Positions 18,634 through 35,068 of a stretch of 39,598 nucleotides of DNA are shown piece after piece. This DNA is from Candidatus Aenigmatarchaeota archaeon (GTDB lineage: Archaea; Aenigmatarchaeota; Aenigmatarchaeia; QMZP01): the NCBI GenBank assembly GCA_015520105.1, contig WAQT01000033.1, positions 1 to 39,598 on the forward strand. The letters run 5' to 3'. The notes under the pieces are model-generated. The model was not told where the DNA came from, made no database searches, and saw only the letters and a program-made list of their open reading frames with translations. The position numbers were made by a program, and so were the translations under genes. The stretch's first letter is position 1; the number at the start of each line of letters is the position of its first letter.

Positions 18634-18746
18634 GGGCCCGTAGCTCAATCGGATGCCTGCCGGCGTATTTGGCGGTGCCGGTTTTCCGGGAATAGAGCGC
18701 TCGGCTTCGGACCGAGAGGTTGGGGGTTCGAGTCCTCCCGGGCTCA
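18634..18746 (+). tRNA. tRNA-Arg(UCG) with a ~39-nt D-loop intron (approx. 18655-18693)
   Basis: Acceptor GGGCCCG/CGGGCTC, D stem GCTC/GAGC interrupted by an insert, anticodon arm CTCGG-CT-TCG-GA-CCGAG, T arm GGGGG-TTCGAGT-CCTCC; CCA not encoded. Confidence 0.92.
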
Positions 18747-33653: not shown

Positions 33654-34475
33654 CTATTTCAGCGTCTTTTCGGGGTTCTCTCCCCTCCACCAGAAGCTGT
33701 CGTAATAAGAGCGGAACATCCTGACGAGTATCGGGTTTCCTGTGACGAGGCACTGATAGGAGAAAAGCTCATCGCTCCCCGGTTTTCCGTAGTAATCCTT
33801 CTCGTTCACTCCCGGCTTCGGTATCTTGGAGACCAGATAGAGGAGCTTTCCGTCTATCATCGCTCCCATCAGCCCTTTCATCTCCCAGCCGCGGACCTTT
33901 ATTCCAGAGGAGAGGGCCTTTTTTGCCGTGTTCATGGTGTGCTCGTTCAGGTTTATCAGTATCTTCACAGTCCTTCCGCTCCTGCATGTGAGCGATTTCT
34001 CTATCCTGTCGTACCAGCTCAGGTCGTCGCTGAACACCAGTATCTCCCTTTTTGCCTTTCTCATGACCTCGTTTATTTTGGCCAGTATGTTCTCCCTTCC
34101 ATTCAGAATCCACACGGTCTCGGTCTCCTCCTCAAGCGGGTTGTCTGGCGGCGCAGGAACGGAATCCTTTATCCTTTTGATTATCTCCGACGACTTCTCG
34201 AGCTCCCTCTCCATCTTCCTTCTCTTCTCATCGAGAATGTTCCTCAGGGAATCAACAGATATTATGCTGTATTTCTTCGGCCTGCTTTTCTGGACTATCA
34301 CGAGACCTCTCTTCTCAAGGCTGTCCAGCGTCTCGTAAACCCGTGTCACGGGTATGCCTGATAACTTGCTCACCGCATCGGCAGTGCTTGTCCCGTTCTT
34401 CAGGAGCGTCAGCCATGCCTTTGCTTCATACTCCTTCATTCCGATTTCCCTGAGAAGCGGCTCTATGTCTTTCAT
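33654..34475 (-). CDS. TrmB family transcriptional regulator
   Basis: IGMKEYEAKAWLTLL...SGIPVTRVYETLDSLEKRGLV...SRPKKY wHTH, coiled coil and C-terminal PLD-like sensing domain. Confidence 0.9.
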   Translation of the reverse strand: MKDIEPLLREIGMKEYEAKAWLTLLKNGTSTADAVSKLSGIPVTRVYETLDSLEKRGLVIVQKSRPKKYSIISVDSLRNILDEKRRKMERELEKSSEIIKRIKDSVPAPPDNPLEEETETVWILNGRENILAKINEVMRKAKREILVFSDDLSWYDRIEKSLTCRSGRTVKILINLNEHTMNTAKKALSSGIKVRGWEMKGLMGAMIDGKLLYLVSKIPKPGVNEKDYYGKPGSDELFSYQCLVTGNPILVRMFRSYYDSFWWRGENPEKTLK

Positions 34476-34501
34476 ACAATCCGCCGTTAATCCGTTGGTT
34501 A

Positions 34502-34804
34502 TGAGCCCGGAGGGATTCCCGTTTCATGGTTTAACCCGTTTATAGGTTAACCATGCCGCATGTCCATTTGCTGCATGTTTTTGCTCCACCGCTTTTTGAA
34601 GAAGGCGGAAGCCTCTCGTAAAAAGCGGTGTTTCGAACCCTCGACACCCGGGTTTCTTCTGTCATCGAGCCCTTTGCGGGACTTTCCCTGCGGAAGCGTC
34701 TCTCCGAAAGGCTCTTCACACGCTTTTAATGACATTAAAAGCTTCACCCGGCGGCTTCGCTCGAAGCCCTGTCCGGTGCTCTAACCAGACTGAGCTACGG
34801 GCCC
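34502..34804 (-). tRNA. tRNA-Lys(UUU) with three introns (30/31, 37/38, 59/60)
   Basis: Exons 34804-34773, 34742-34736, 34653-34632 and 34515-34502 join into a 75-nt cloverleaf GGGCCCGTAGCTCAGTCTGGTTAGAGCACCGGGCTTTTAACCCGGGTGTCGAGGGTTCGAATCCCTCCGGGCTCA; BHB-like junctions. Confidence 0.88.
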
Positions 34805-34835
34805 ATAAAGACGCATGACCGCGGCACAGCCGGCA

Positions 34836-35068
34836 CGCCCTGGGCGGGATTTCCCTCTACACTATCCGGTAACCGGTGTCCGGTTAACCTCAATTAAAGG
34901 GGATGATAGTGCGGTAAGAAGGGGAAATGTGTTCCCCTTCTTGCGCTTCGAACCCGCGTCCTGGGAGTTCAGCAAACCTTTCGGAAGGCGGAAGCCTCCT
35001 TTTTGATGAAACTTTTTTCCAAAAAGTTTCTGACAGTCCCAGATGCTAGGCCACTACACTACCAGAGC
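34836..35068 (-). tRNA. tRNA-Asp(GUC) with two introns (37/38, ~59/60)
   Basis: Exons 35068-35031, 34967-34947 and 34849-34836 join into a 73-nt cloverleaf: acceptor GCTCTGG/CCAGGGC, anticodon arm TGGGA-CT-GTC-AC-TCCCA, T arm GCGGG-TTCGAAT-CCCGC. Confidence 0.88.

What the first reader, a model, noticed from the sequence alone, without database searches (positions are those of the whole stretch)
34502..34804. tRNA-Lys(UUU) split by three introns, with the anticodon on a 7-nt micro-exon
Seen: a 303-nt gene yields a 75-nt tRNA. Introns are 30 nt (34772-34743, site 30/31, helix CACC/GGTG with GGA and AAG bulges), 82 nt (34735-34654, site 37/38, helix CTTT/GAAG) and 116 nt (34631-34516, site 59/60, helix TTCG/CGGG). 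The CTTT of the micro-exon is needed both for the outer helix of intron 1 and the central helix of intron 2, which implies ordered splicing. Triple-intron tRNAs are known in Thermoproteales, but about 75% intron content with long multi-hairpin introns looks unusual, and standard annotation would probably miss it.
Basis: partly seen in the sequence, partly recalled or inferred. Interest (0 to 1): 0.85.

Follow-up and report, generated by a model that had tools for sequence, protein, structure and literature searches.

The report
Three-intron lysine tRNA gene, real
This is a genuine lysine tRNA gene cut into four pieces by three introns, one piece being only seven letters long and carrying the anticodon; it is typical of its small-genome archaeal lineage rather than a one-off oddity.

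Summary
On the minus strand, 34804-34502, four exons (32, 7, 22 and 14 nt) join into a perfect 75-nt tRNA-Lys(UUU). The three introns (30, 82 and 116 nt, at 30/31, 37/38 and 59/60) each have a 3-4-3 bulge-helix-bulge motif. An independent search found the same boundaries as its only solution, and a reversed-genome control gave no perfect hit. ARAGORN and Rfam miss the gene. The 797-kb genome encodes an ARMAN-2-type (epsilon2) splicing endonuclease and RtcB. I found no other tRNA-Lys(UUU), and AAA is 30% of Lys codons.

The gene is not exceptional for its lineage.
- 20 of 33 parsed relatives have an internal exon of 7-9 nt carrying the anticodon.
- 3 relatives have four introns, and gene lengths reach 334 nt.
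- In this genome, tRNA-Tyr has the same 7-nt exon and tRNA-Glu has introns of 241 and 193 nt.

New details:
- The two anticodon-arm motifs exclude each other, and folding favours removing intron 1 before intron 2.
- Intron 2 carries a conserved 8-nt antisense to the micro-exon beside a K-turn-like motif, which may be a methylation guide.
- Intron 3 belongs to an intron family shared with two other tRNA genes.
- tRNA-Asp lies 31 nt upstream.

No RNA data exist.

The parts
34502..34804 (-). tRNA-Lys(UUU) gene, 303 nt, giving a 75-nt mature tRNA (no encoded CCA)
34773..34804 (-). exon 1 (tRNA positions 1-30; 32 nt)
   Evidence: Contigs of other organisms in four DNA runs match this exon and diverge at 34773 and 34804.
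34743..34772 (-). intron 1, 30 nt, at 30/31. Central helix CACC/GGTG, bulges GGA and AAG. On the intron side there is an internal loop plus a 6-bp hairpin (relaxed, hBH-like motif).
   Evidence: The helix varies with compensating changes in orthologues.
34736..34742 (-). micro-exon GCTTTTA (positions 31-37, including anticodon UUU)
34654..34735 (-). intron 2, 82 nt, at the canonical site 37/38. Strict hBHBh' motif: anticodon stem, CTTT/GAAG, and a 6-bp inner helix TGTCAT/ATGACA.
   Evidence: The inner helix changes on both sides in two relatives.
34722..34729 (-). conserved TTAAAAGC in intron 2, a perfect antisense of the micro-exon plus the first intron base (8-bp hairpin with a 5-nt loop)
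34715..34718 (-). D'-box-like tetranucleotide TGAA, 3 nt after the antisense element and directly before a hairpin stem (34707-34714 pairs with 34667-34674)
   Evidence: The box is degenerate in this gene.
34662..34666 (-). GATGA, the C'-box-like / K-turn bulged strand directly after the hairpin stem; it overlaps the inner helix of the intron 2 BHB
34632..34653 (-). exon 3 (positions 38-59; 22 nt)
34516..34631 (-). intron 3, 116 nt, in the T-loop at 59/60. T-stem plus TTCG/CGGG (two G-U pairs); the intron side is a multi-hairpin loop (relaxed motif).
34587..34630 (-). 44-nt hairpin module of intron 3, also found in other tRNA introns and at non-tRNA loci of the genome
34502..34515 (-). exon 4 (positions 60-73; 14 nt)
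34836..35068 (-). neighbouring tRNA-Asp(GUC) gene with two introns (35030-34968, 63 nt, at 37/38; 34946-34850, 97 nt, at 59/60). It lies 31 nt upstream of tRNA-Lys and is probably in the same transcript.
   Evidence: Boundaries were set by hand; ARAGORN calls the joined exons tRNA-Asp(gtc).

Best explanation
The locus is the working gene for tRNA-Lys(UUU) of a small-genome (DPANN-type) archaeon, interrupted by three protein-spliced (bulge-helix-bulge) introns at 30/31, 37/38 and 59/60. The anticodon sits on a 7-nt exon.

Inferred pathway. The gene is probably transcribed together with the tRNA-Asp gene 31 nt upstream, because no TATA-like box precedes tRNA-Lys. The genome's three-unit epsilon2-type splicing endonuclease cuts in the two 3-nt bulges of each motif, and RtcB joins the exons.

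Order of removal (shown in part, modelled in part). The T-loop intron can be removed at any time. The two anticodon-arm motifs use the same nucleotides, so they need two successive conformations (this follows from the sequence). Folding energies favour intron 1 first, after which the canonical motif of intron 2 is the lowest-energy fold (model only).

Role of the antisense element (inferred). In the full precursor the micro-exon is held in an 8-bp hairpin with a conserved intron 2 element. This hairpin can serve as the outer helix of the intron 1 motif.

Both the architecture and the antisense element are inherited across the order, not a peculiarity of this gene.
For: Gene and introns. The joined exons give a perfect cloverleaf that ARAGORN calls tRNA-Lys(ttt). 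An independent BHB-plus-cloverleaf search gave the same boundaries as its only solution. The reversed-genome control gave 0 of 17 starts at 21/21 stem pairs, against 10 of 26 in the real genome.

Orthologues. All 8 relatives' loci that I aligned (picked by eye from the hits among the 11 relatives' loci) carry a spliced tRNA-Lys(UUU). Seven have introns at 30/31 and 37/38, and six have one near 59/60 or in the T-arm. Of 33 orthologues parsed, 20 have an internal exon of 7-9 nt. The intron 1 central helix appears as CACC/GGTG, CATC/GATG, CAAC/GTTG, CGGC/GCCG and CGCC/GGCG. With boundaries fixed by tRNA positions, 30 of 63 rows pair 4/4 in register, against at most 2 of 63 in shifted registers.

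Splicing enzymes. The endonuclease is a 420-aa protein that aligns over residues 35-420 to ARMAN-2 EndA, PDB 4fz2 (E 7.9e-98), with the Tyr-Lys of the ARMAN-specific loop kept. RtcB is present.

Need for the gene. AAA accounts for 2727 of 9097 Lys codons. No second UUU-anticodon gene was found. tRNA-Lys(CUU) is a separate gene.

Order of removal. After removal of intron 1, the minimum-energy fold is the cloverleaf with both remaining motifs.

Exon boundary. Contigs of other organisms in four DNA runs match exon 1 and leave it at 34773. By my reading of the loose-end consensus, they continue with an uninterrupted anticodon loop.
Against: - There is no RNA evidence of any kind. No RNA run holds the locus (see Tried and rejected), so splicing, its order and co-transcription are all inferred.
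- The motifs of introns 1 and 3 are relaxed, with no inner helix stacked on the bulge.
- Energies were computed at 37 C with standard parameters, although the DNA occurs in hydrothermal-vent metagenomes.
- My orthologue parser required 4/4 central-helix pairs, so 'always paired' is partly circular. addresses this only crudely; its 63 rows include wrong-strand rows because the search pattern is a palindrome.
- The genome is 87.8% complete, so a second tRNA-Lys(UUU) cannot be excluded.
Confidence: 0.9

Rival explanations
1. The conserved intron 2 element is half of a box C/D guide RNA. The 8-nt antisense pairs with the anticodon loop. The adjacent D'-like box, hairpin and GAUGA form a K-turn that binds L7Ae, Nop5 and fibrillarin. 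These would 2'-O-methylate C32 (where the spacer is 3 nt, as here) or U34 (1-nt spacer) before the RNA switches to the splicing conformation, as in the tRNA-Trp intron of Euryarchaeota. This adds to the main explanation and rivals only the reading of what the element is for.
For: - All 9 loci found with the whole gene, not with the motif, carry TTAAAAGC behind loops of differing length and sequence.
- The hairpin pattern occurs in 71 of 371 genomes of the phylum sample, against 2 of 371 for the reversed control.
- In 26 of 32 distinct introns a parser found this layout: antisense, a spacer (3 nt in 19, 1 nt in 5, 0 in 2 likely mis-parsed), a 4-nt box, a hairpin stem of 3-9 bp with differing sequences, three bulge bases and GA. 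The base next to the stem is A in 24 of 26. The free last base of the bulged strand is A in 26 of 26.
- 12 of the 32 have a YTGA box: 7 from the parser and 5 more by eye.
- A record titled Nitrososphaeria has the antisense, CTGA, a 6-nt loop and GATGA in its tRNA-Lys(UUU) intron.
- Fibrillarin, Nop5 and L7Ae genes are present in this genome.
- Cm32 occurs in both tRNA-Lys of Haloferax volcanii (PMC2584109, passage read).
- C/D guides target position 34 of several tRNAs (PMC7994747 and PMC6009581, passages read).
Against: - In this gene the box reads TGAA, and in much of its family CTTA, TTTA or TATA. The second sheared pair of a K-turn is therefore lost (G at that place in only 12 of 26).
- I saw no terminal C and D boxes, so at best this is a half-mer.
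- GATGA overlaps the inner helix of the intron 2 BHB. Two relatives changed it to GATGG with a compensating change on the other strand, which favours the helix over a K-turn.
- The two spacer classes would aim at different nucleotides.
- The parser forces part of the motif (NNTG plus A or G) and picks complementary stems, so it is partly circular.
- In H. volcanii, Cm32 is ascribed to a protein enzyme (same passage of PMC2584109).
- There are no modification data.
Confidence: 0.25
2. The antisense element is purely a folding device for splicing. It keeps the A/U-rich 7-nt exon in a stable helix, supplies the outer helix of the intron 1 motif, and so sets the order of cuts. No modification is guided.
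For: When only the intron 1 central helix and bulges are enforced, the fold places the micro-exon hairpin next to them. The unconstrained fold of the whole precursor contains the hairpin, and it disappears in favour of the intron 2 motif once intron 1 is removed.
Against: The element is equally conserved in orthologues without an intron at 30/31: 13 of the 33 parsed, 8 of which have the canonical intron only. This reading does not explain the conserved A next to the hairpin stem or the GA after it. tRNA-Tyr of this genome has the same micro-exon layout but no antisense element.
Confidence: 0.35
3. The locus is a decaying pseudogene or a chance assembly of tRNA-like pieces, and AAA codons are read by another tRNA.
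For: There is no expression data. The genome is incomplete (87.8%).
Against: All 21 stem pairs are intact, and no hit of this quality occurs in the reversed genome. Exons are conserved while introns diverge in length and sequence across families. Compensating changes occur in the splice-motif helices. No other UUU anticodon arm in a tRNA context was found.
Confidence: 0.03

Closest known systems
Disrupted tRNA genes of Candidatus Micrarchaeum (ARMAN-2) and its epsilon2 splicing endonuclease (PMC3239211, abstract, passages and section 13 read; PMC12397907 and PMC5829648, passages read)
   Same: The endonuclease is of the same kind, full-length similar to PDB 4fz2. ARMAN-2 also has many interrupted tRNA genes, introns at 59/60 and 53/54, and relaxed motifs. 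A tiny internal exon is already known there: tRNA-Pro(GGG) has introns at 53/54 and 59/60, which leaves a 6-nt exon.
   Different: Here the tiny exon carries the anticodon, there are three introns, and the architecture is conserved over an order. Related public records are titled Aenigmatarchaeota rather than Micrarchaeota.
Multi-intron tRNA genes and intron transposition in Thermoproteales (review PMC4090602 and PMC8450103, passages read; the original papers by Sugahara 2007/2008 and Fujishima 2010 were not seen)
   Same: They have up to three BHB introns per gene, at canonical and non-canonical sites. Neighbouring motifs can form only after another intron is removed. Related intron sequences recur in different tRNA genes.
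   Different: The phylum and the endonuclease type differ: (alpha-beta)2 there, epsilon2 here. In this genome the shared intron family sits at the same site (59/60) in three different tRNA genes.
Intron-encoded box C/D guide of archaeal pre-tRNA-Trp (known to me from passages in PMC7994747 and PMC2584109; the original papers were not read)
   Same: It is a canonical intron carrying an antisense to the anticodon loop next to K-turn boxes. The guide conformation and the splicing conformation exclude each other.
   Different: tRNA-Trp introns have all four boxes and two guides. Here there is at most one internal box pair, and it is degenerate in this gene. Function is untested.
Heavily interrupted tRNA genes of Asgard archaea (bioRxiv 10.64898/2026.10.13.758758, passages read)
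   Same: Most tRNA genes are interrupted, with up to five intervening sequences in one gene, and standard annotation misses many of them.
   Different: It is a different superphylum. That text holds none of the words DPANN, Micrarchaeota or micro-exon.
tRNA-Ile(UAU) of the red alga Cyanidioschyzon merolae, with three introns (PMC9602550, abstract in search listing only)
   Same: [quoted passage not shown]
   Different: It is a eukaryote, and the sites and enzyme differ.

Membership tests
Archaeal bulge-helix-bulge (BHB) tRNA introns | [quoted passage not shown] | tested here: met
   All three introns meet it. Helices are CACC/GGTG, CTTT/GAAG (one G-U) and TTCG/CGGG (two G-U).
Archaeal bulge-helix-bulge (BHB) tRNA introns | At least one flanking helix (exon-side h or intron-side h') of 2 bp or more | tested here: met
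   Intron 2 has both (5 bp and 6 bp). Intron 3 has the T-stem only. Intron 1 has an outer helix only, either AGAG/CUUU or the micro-exon hairpin.
Archaeal bulge-helix-bulge (BHB) tRNA introns | Removal restores a canonical cloverleaf tRNA | tested here: met
   The product is a 75-nt cloverleaf with 21 of 21 stem pairs, which ARAGORN calls tRNA-Lys(ttt).
Archaeal bulge-helix-bulge (BHB) tRNA introns | Cleavage by the splicing endonuclease and ligation in the cell | not testable with these tools
   No RNA run holds the locus. The enzymes are encoded.
epsilon2 (three-unit) splicing endonuclease, ARMAN-2 type | A single chain of about 390-420 aa similar over its whole length to ARMAN-2 EndA, with one catalytic C-terminal-type domain | tested here: met
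   E 7.9e-98 to 4fz2, query residues 35-420 against chain residues 14-387. Pfam finds tRNA_int_endo at 236-320 and the N-terminal domain at 39-71.
epsilon2 (three-unit) splicing endonuclease, ARMAN-2 type | ARMAN-specific loop with Tyr160/Lys161, needed for efficient cleavage (PMC12397907, passages) | tested here: met
   The alignment puts a query Tyr-Lys opposite Y160-K161. The position count is mine.
epsilon2 (three-unit) splicing endonuclease, ARMAN-2 type | Homodimer that cuts both strict and relaxed motifs | not tested
   No fold or assay was run.
Intron-encoded box C/D guide RNA (pre-tRNA-Trp type) | Terminal box C (RUGAUGA) and box D (CUGA) | tested here: not met
   I saw none in intron 2 or its flanks, by eye, on the sequences.
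Intron-encoded box C/D guide RNA (pre-tRNA-Trp type) | An internal D'/C' pair able to form a K-turn or K-loop | tested here: inconclusive
   This gene has TGAA ... GATGA around an 8-bp stem. A is next to the stem in 24 of 26 parsed orthologues, but G at the second sheared pair in only 12 of 26.
Intron-encoded box C/D guide RNA (pre-tRNA-Trp type) | A guide of 8 nt or more complementary to the target, ending 1-3 nt before the D' box | tested here: met
   TTAAAAGC pairs with positions 31-37 plus the first intron base. The spacer is 3 nt here, so the fifth base upstream of the box pairs with C32.
Intron-encoded box C/D guide RNA (pre-tRNA-Trp type) | Fibrillarin, Nop5 and L7Ae present; the target nucleotide methylated | tested here: inconclusive
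   The three genes are present. Methylation cannot be tested here.

The most novel reading that the evidence does not exclude
The canonical intron of tRNA-Lys(UUU) is an ancient, cis-acting half box C/D guide: an 8-nt antisense beside a single K-turn. It would methylate the ribose of C32 or U34 in the precursor, then give way to the splicing fold. One RNA would thus time modification before splicing and intron 1 before intron 2. The element is kept from this DPANN order to at least one record labelled Nitrososphaeria.
Probability: 0.22. Interest if true: 0.75.

Novelty: new member of a known kind. Interest (0 to 1): 0.5.

Why it matters
- Annotation. In this genome ARAGORN finds 11 tRNA genes and Rfam's tRNA model 10 above its cut-off. 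Such MAGs would be scored as lacking tRNA-Lys(UUU), tRNA-Asp and others although the genes are there.
- Test system for intron order. The anticodon micro-exon, flanked by two mutually exclusive splice motifs and held by an intron-borne antisense, is conserved across an order, so it can be used to ask how order is imposed among several protein-spliced introns.
- Intron gain. The 59/60 intron shared by three tRNA genes is only 22 nt in a same-genus relative. This is a recent case for studying how tRNA introns are gained or exchanged.
- If the guide reading holds, it would be a second, independent case of a tRNA intron directing modification of its own tRNA.

Tried and rejected
Expression. The look-up of sequencing runs listed 5 holders, and none is on record as RNA: no RNA holder listed. 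Read laying on the four DNA runs gave contigs only. It showed other organisms' exon-1 matches and one X4 contig that joins 34654 to 34775 with 47 other letters in between. It gives nothing on splicing.

Searches that failed or fell short:
- A relaxed whole-genome version got no answer from the machine.
- I then ran the relaxed version on 20 chosen regions only, so there is no complete census of this genome's tRNA genes. Genes seen only by eye are not machine-checked: Arg(CCU) on C19, Arg(UCU) and Ile(GAU) on C10, and a Leu-like gene on C32.
- The finder did not recover tRNA-Asp, because its central helices pair only 3 of 4.

Rejected leads:
- A 15-nt match of the spliced sequence on C45 lies in coding-like sequence and is chance.
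- None of the 13 intact UUU anticodon arms in the genome is in a tRNA context.
- The tRNA-Lys(CUU) version of the hairpin, meant as a covariation test, was at chance level: 4 of 371 genomes against 3 of 371 for its control.
Of the 9 archaeal-titled loci I examined, 5 are clear tRNA-Lys genes (L090, L098, L125, L130, L164), L114 is unclear, and 3 are not tRNA genes.
- The bacterial promoter and terminator scan does not apply to an archaeon.
- An automatic search for the D-loop intron of tRNA-Arg gave a wrong answer. One search shows only that removing 35-41 nt inside the D-loop gives a full tRNA-Arg; the exact ends stay open.

Literature. I found nothing in print on a tRNA-Lys intron guide or on an anticodon micro-exon in DPANN in searches. 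tRNAscan-SE 2.0 and SPLITS are not available here, so 'standard annotation misses it' was tested only for ARAGORN and Rfam.
Full report
OBSERVATION. The three introns are 30, 82 and 116 nt. Joined by script, the exons give 75 nt whose minimum-energy fold is a cloverleaf (-34.2 kcal/mol) and which ARAGORN calls tRNA-Lys(ttt). Each intron end lies after the second base of a 3-nt bulge, and the two bulges of each intron are separated by a 4-bp helix: CACC/GGTG, CTTT/GAAG and TTCG/CGGG. Introns make up 228 of 303 nt. ARAGORN on the window sees only a tRNA-Arg elsewhere. Rfam at gathering threshold sees nothing in the window. With relaxed thresholds on 34300-35000 it gives only a chance CRISPR-repeat match (E 4.1).

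IS IT MORE THAN CHANCE? I wrote a search that lists every 3-4-3 bulge-helix-bulge (BHB) candidate of 11-260 (or 300) nt and then asks for a cloverleaf after removing up to three or four of them.
- On the whole genome (886,067 candidates, 7,386 T-arm modules) it gave 84 solutions at 26 distinct starts. Ten of these starts had all 21 stem pairs, this gene among them.
- On the reversed, uncomplemented genome it gave 70 solutions at 17 starts, none with 21 pairs.

THE GENOME AND ITS SPLICING ENZYMES.
- The assembly is 796,626 bases in 66 contigs, 87.8% complete.
- It encodes one splicing endonuclease, a 420-aa open frame. This aligns over residues 35-420 with the three-unit epsilon2 enzyme of ARMAN-2, PDB 4fz2, at E 7.9e-98, and has the Pfam catalytic and N-terminal domains.
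- By my count on that alignment, the Tyr-Lys of the ARMAN-specific loop is kept. A 2025 paper reports this pair as needed for efficient cutting of both BHB and bulge-helix-loop substrates (PMC12397907, passages).
- RtcB is present.
- ARMAN-2 is described as having 56% disrupted tRNA genes, introns at 59/60, and a tRNA-Pro with introns at both 53/54 and 59/60 (PMC3239211, abstract, passages, section 13).
- In this genome ARAGORN with introns allowed finds 11 tRNA genes, some of them wrong. Rfam's tRNA model finds 10 above its cut-off. Most tRNA genes here are therefore hidden in the same way.

IS THE GENE NEEDED?
- AAA is 2727 of 9097 Lys codons in 295 long ORFs.
- tRNA-Lys(CUU) is a separate gene on C22 with introns at 30/31 and 53/54.
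- BLAST of the spliced sequence against the genome found no second copy.
- Of the 13 intact 5-bp stems around a UUU loop, none lies in a tRNA context.
- My finder found no other TTT anticodon gene.
- Because the genome is incomplete, this is 'not found', not 'absent'.

RELATIVES.
- A DNA search of 40 relatives and a spliced alignment gave orthologous tRNA-Lys(UUU) genes in all 8 loci that I aligned (picked by eye from the hits). Intron lengths are: same genus 35/51/22 nt; others 37/82/33(+25?), 34/49/16, 29/49/39, 25/45/31, 36/104/none, 35/53/none and none/49/34. Exons are nearly identical, while introns differ in length and sequence.
- After fetching more loci, my parser resolved 33 genes at 20 or more of 21 stem pairs, out of 80 loci then held. 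The 80 include loci that are not Lys genes and chance hairpins. Duplicates L038 and L039 were set aside before the count; only L039 had been parsed.
- Among the 33: 8 have one intron, 10 two, 12 three and 3 four. Twenty have an internal exon of 7-9 nt. Gene length runs from 112 to 334 nt (median 177), and this gene is the fourth longest. The intron share has a median of 0.58 and a maximum of 0.78. Six of 76 introns are 100 nt or longer.
- Two four-intron genes (L046, L050) read cleanly as five exons of 17, 14-15, 7, 22 and 14 nt.
- In this genome, tRNA-Tyr(GUA) has the same layout: 30/31 (18 nt), a 7-nt exon, then 37/38 (48 nt). tRNA-Ile(UAU) has three introns. tRNA-Glu(CUC) has introns of 241 and 193 nt.
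- The gene is therefore a typical member of a lineage-wide pattern, not an extreme.

SUPPORT FOR THE SPLICE MOTIFS FROM VARIATION.
- In 20 distinct orthologues with a 30/31 intron, the central helix reads CACC/GGTG, CATC/GGTG, CATC/GATG, CACT/GGTG, CAAC/GTTG, CGGC/GCCG or CGCC/GGCG. The parser demanded four pairs, so only the variety of pair types counts as evidence.
- In a cruder test I fixed the boundaries by tRNA positions alone. Thirty of 63 rows paired 4/4 in register. The 63 rows include wrong-strand rows, because the pattern is a palindrome. In registers shifted by -1, 1, 2 or 3, only 0-2 of 63 paired 4/4.
- The inner helix of intron 2 (TGTCAT/ATGACA) becomes TGCCAT/ATGGCA or a close variant in two relatives.
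- Contigs of other organisms in four DNA runs match exon 1 and leave it at 34773 and 34804. By my reading of the loose-end consensus, they continue with an uninterrupted anticodon loop.

HOW IT PROBABLY WORKS.
- The intron 1 motif uses positions 25-28 (central helix).
- The intron 2 motif uses 27-31 paired with 39-43, and 32-35 paired with the intron. The two motifs cannot coexist.
- With intron 1 removed, the free fold is the cloverleaf carrying both remaining motifs.
- This favours the following order: intron 3 at any time, and intron 1 before intron 2.
- It is a model, computed at a temperature that may be wrong for a vent organism.
- That close introns must be removed in turn is already in print (PMC8450103, passages).

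A CONSERVED ELEMENT IN INTRON 2.
- All 9 loci found with the whole gene carry TTAAAAGC a few bases into intron 2, behind loops that differ in length and sequence. It is the exact antisense of the micro-exon plus the first intron base. The free fold of the precursor pairs the two.
- The hairpin pattern occurs in 71 of 371 genomes of the phylum sample, against 2 of 371 for the reversed control. It is in 29 of 46 genomes of the own family, and in 9/14, 7/23, 2/5, 1/1 and 0/1 of the other families of the order. Where I looked, it sits in tRNA-Lys(UUU) genes.
- It is kept in genes without the 30/31 intron.
- Behind it, 26 of 32 distinct introns show this layout: a spacer (3 nt in 19, 1 nt in 5, 0 in 2 likely mis-parsed), a 4-nt box, a hairpin stem of 3-9 bp with differing sequences, three bases, and GA. 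The box ends in A in 24 of 26. The base before that A is G in 12, U in 10, A in 3 and C in 1. The letter after the required UG is A in 26 of 26.
- This is the layout of an internal D'/C' box pair (a K-turn) with a guide in front of it. By the usual fifth-base rule, which I recall rather than took from a call, the target would be C32 with a 3-nt spacer, as here, or U34 with a 1-nt spacer.
- Points in favour: fibrillarin, Nop5 and L7Ae are encoded; Cm32 is found in both tRNA-Lys of Haloferax volcanii, though ascribed there to a protein enzyme (PMC2584109, passage); C/D guides aimed at position 34 of tRNAs and the tRNA-Trp intron guide are known (PMC7994747 and PMC6009581, passages).
- Points against: in this gene the box is TGAA and in much of its family CTTA, TTTA or TATA; no terminal C and D boxes were seen; GATGA overlaps the inner helix of the intron 2 motif, which covaries; the two spacer classes aim at different bases; and my parser is partly circular.
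- I put the guide reading at about one in four, and a purely structural role (holding the A/U-rich exon and serving as outer helix for intron 1) at about one in three.

INTRON 3. The same-genus relative has 22 nt at this site. Here the 116-nt intron aligns with two other T-loop (59/60) introns of this genome: that of tRNA-Ile(GAU) on C10 (81 identical columns of 117) and that of a Leu-like tRNA on C32 (65 of 117). Its first hairpin also recurs at non-tRNA loci on C47, C22, C56 and C26 and, in part, in the canonical intron of the neighbouring tRNA-Asp. This resembles the intron spread described for Thermoproteales (PMC4090602, passage).

SURROUNDINGS.
- A tRNA-Asp(GUC) gene with two introns lies at 35068-34836 on the same strand, 31 nt upstream. 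ARAGORN accepts its joined exons.
- TATA-like stretches precede tRNA-Asp but not tRNA-Lys (my reading), so one transcript is likely.
- Downstream lies a TrmB-family regulator gene (33654-34475, minus strand). Upstream on the other strand is a prepilin-peptidase-like gene.

KNOWN OR NEW?
- Already in print: multi-intron tRNA genes (up to three in Thermoproteales, up to five intervening sequences in Asgard), successive removal of close introns, tiny exons in ARMAN-2, and the epsilon2 enzyme (PMC8450103, bioRxiv 10.64898/2026.10.13.758758, PMC3239211; passages).
- My searches found no description of this tRNA-Lys architecture, of its antisense element, or of four-intron tRNA genes in DPANN. Supplements were closed, and the ARMAN-2 tRNA table may bear on this.

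VERDICT. The gene is a new member of a known kind. Interest is moderate, and rests mostly on the conserved antisense/K-turn-like element and on the shared 59/60 intron family.

Noticed in passing
window 34836-35068 (-): A tRNA-Asp(GUC) gene with two introns (63 nt at 37/38, 97 nt at 59/60) that no tool reported. It sits 31 nt upstream of tRNA-Lys. Both of its central helices pair only 3 of 4.
   Followed up: yes
window 18634-18746 (+): ARAGORN's tRNA-Arg(tcg) at 18675-18746 is mis-bounded. The gene starts at 18634 and has an insertion of about 38 nt in the D-loop (roughly 18653-18690). Removing 35-41 nt there gives a full-length tRNA-Arg. The exact ends are not settled.
   Followed up: partly
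G000 C4:2566-2704 (+): tRNA-Tyr(GUA) has the same layout as tRNA-Lys: an 18-nt intron at 30/31, a 7-nt anticodon exon, and a 48-nt intron at 37/38. Its intron 2 has no antisense to the micro-exon, but it does have TTGA, a short hairpin and GGTGA.
   Followed up: partly
G000 C10:26453-26960 (+); C22:4812-4643 (-); C19:15932-16310 (+): Other heavily interrupted genes. tRNA-Glu(CUC) has introns of 241 and 193 nt, so about 85% of the gene is intron. tRNA-Ile(UAU) has three introns of 30, 35 and 31 nt. By eye only, a three-intron tRNA-Arg(CCU) has a T-loop intron of about 220 nt.
   Followed up: partly
L046, L050 (relatives, whole tRNA-Lys genes): Two tRNA-Lys(UUU) genes read cleanly with four introns (D-loop, 30/31, 37/38, 59/60) and five exons of 17, 14-15, 7, 22 and 14 nt. 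The tRNAscan-SE 2.0 paper gives three as the archaeal maximum. A 2026 preprint reports up to five in Asgard.
   Followed up: partly
G000 C47:9500-10020, C22:24500-24800, C56:1-160, C26:4674-4699: The hairpin module of intron 3 (core GGCTTCCGCC) and neighbouring repeats occur in clusters outside tRNA genes. They could be a mobile or structured-RNA family that seeds introns. I did not analyse them.
   Followed up: no
L013:1198-2460 (-) = G000 C42: The endonuclease is of the epsilon2 type. A 2018 paper (PMC5829648, passages) says this type is known only from Ca. Micrarchaeum and Mancarchaeum. Titled public records holding this tRNA-Lys architecture (L125, L130, L164) are labelled Candidatus Aenigmatarchaeota. 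The enzyme type may therefore be more widespread in DPANN. I did not name the window's own genome.
   Followed up: partly
L090 (record titled uncultured Nitrososphaeria archaeon): A tRNA-Lys(UUU) gene whose only intron has the same antisense element followed by T, CTGA, a 6-nt loop and GATGA. This is the clearest D'/C'-like case, and it lies outside DPANN, unless the contig is mis-binned.
   Followed up: no
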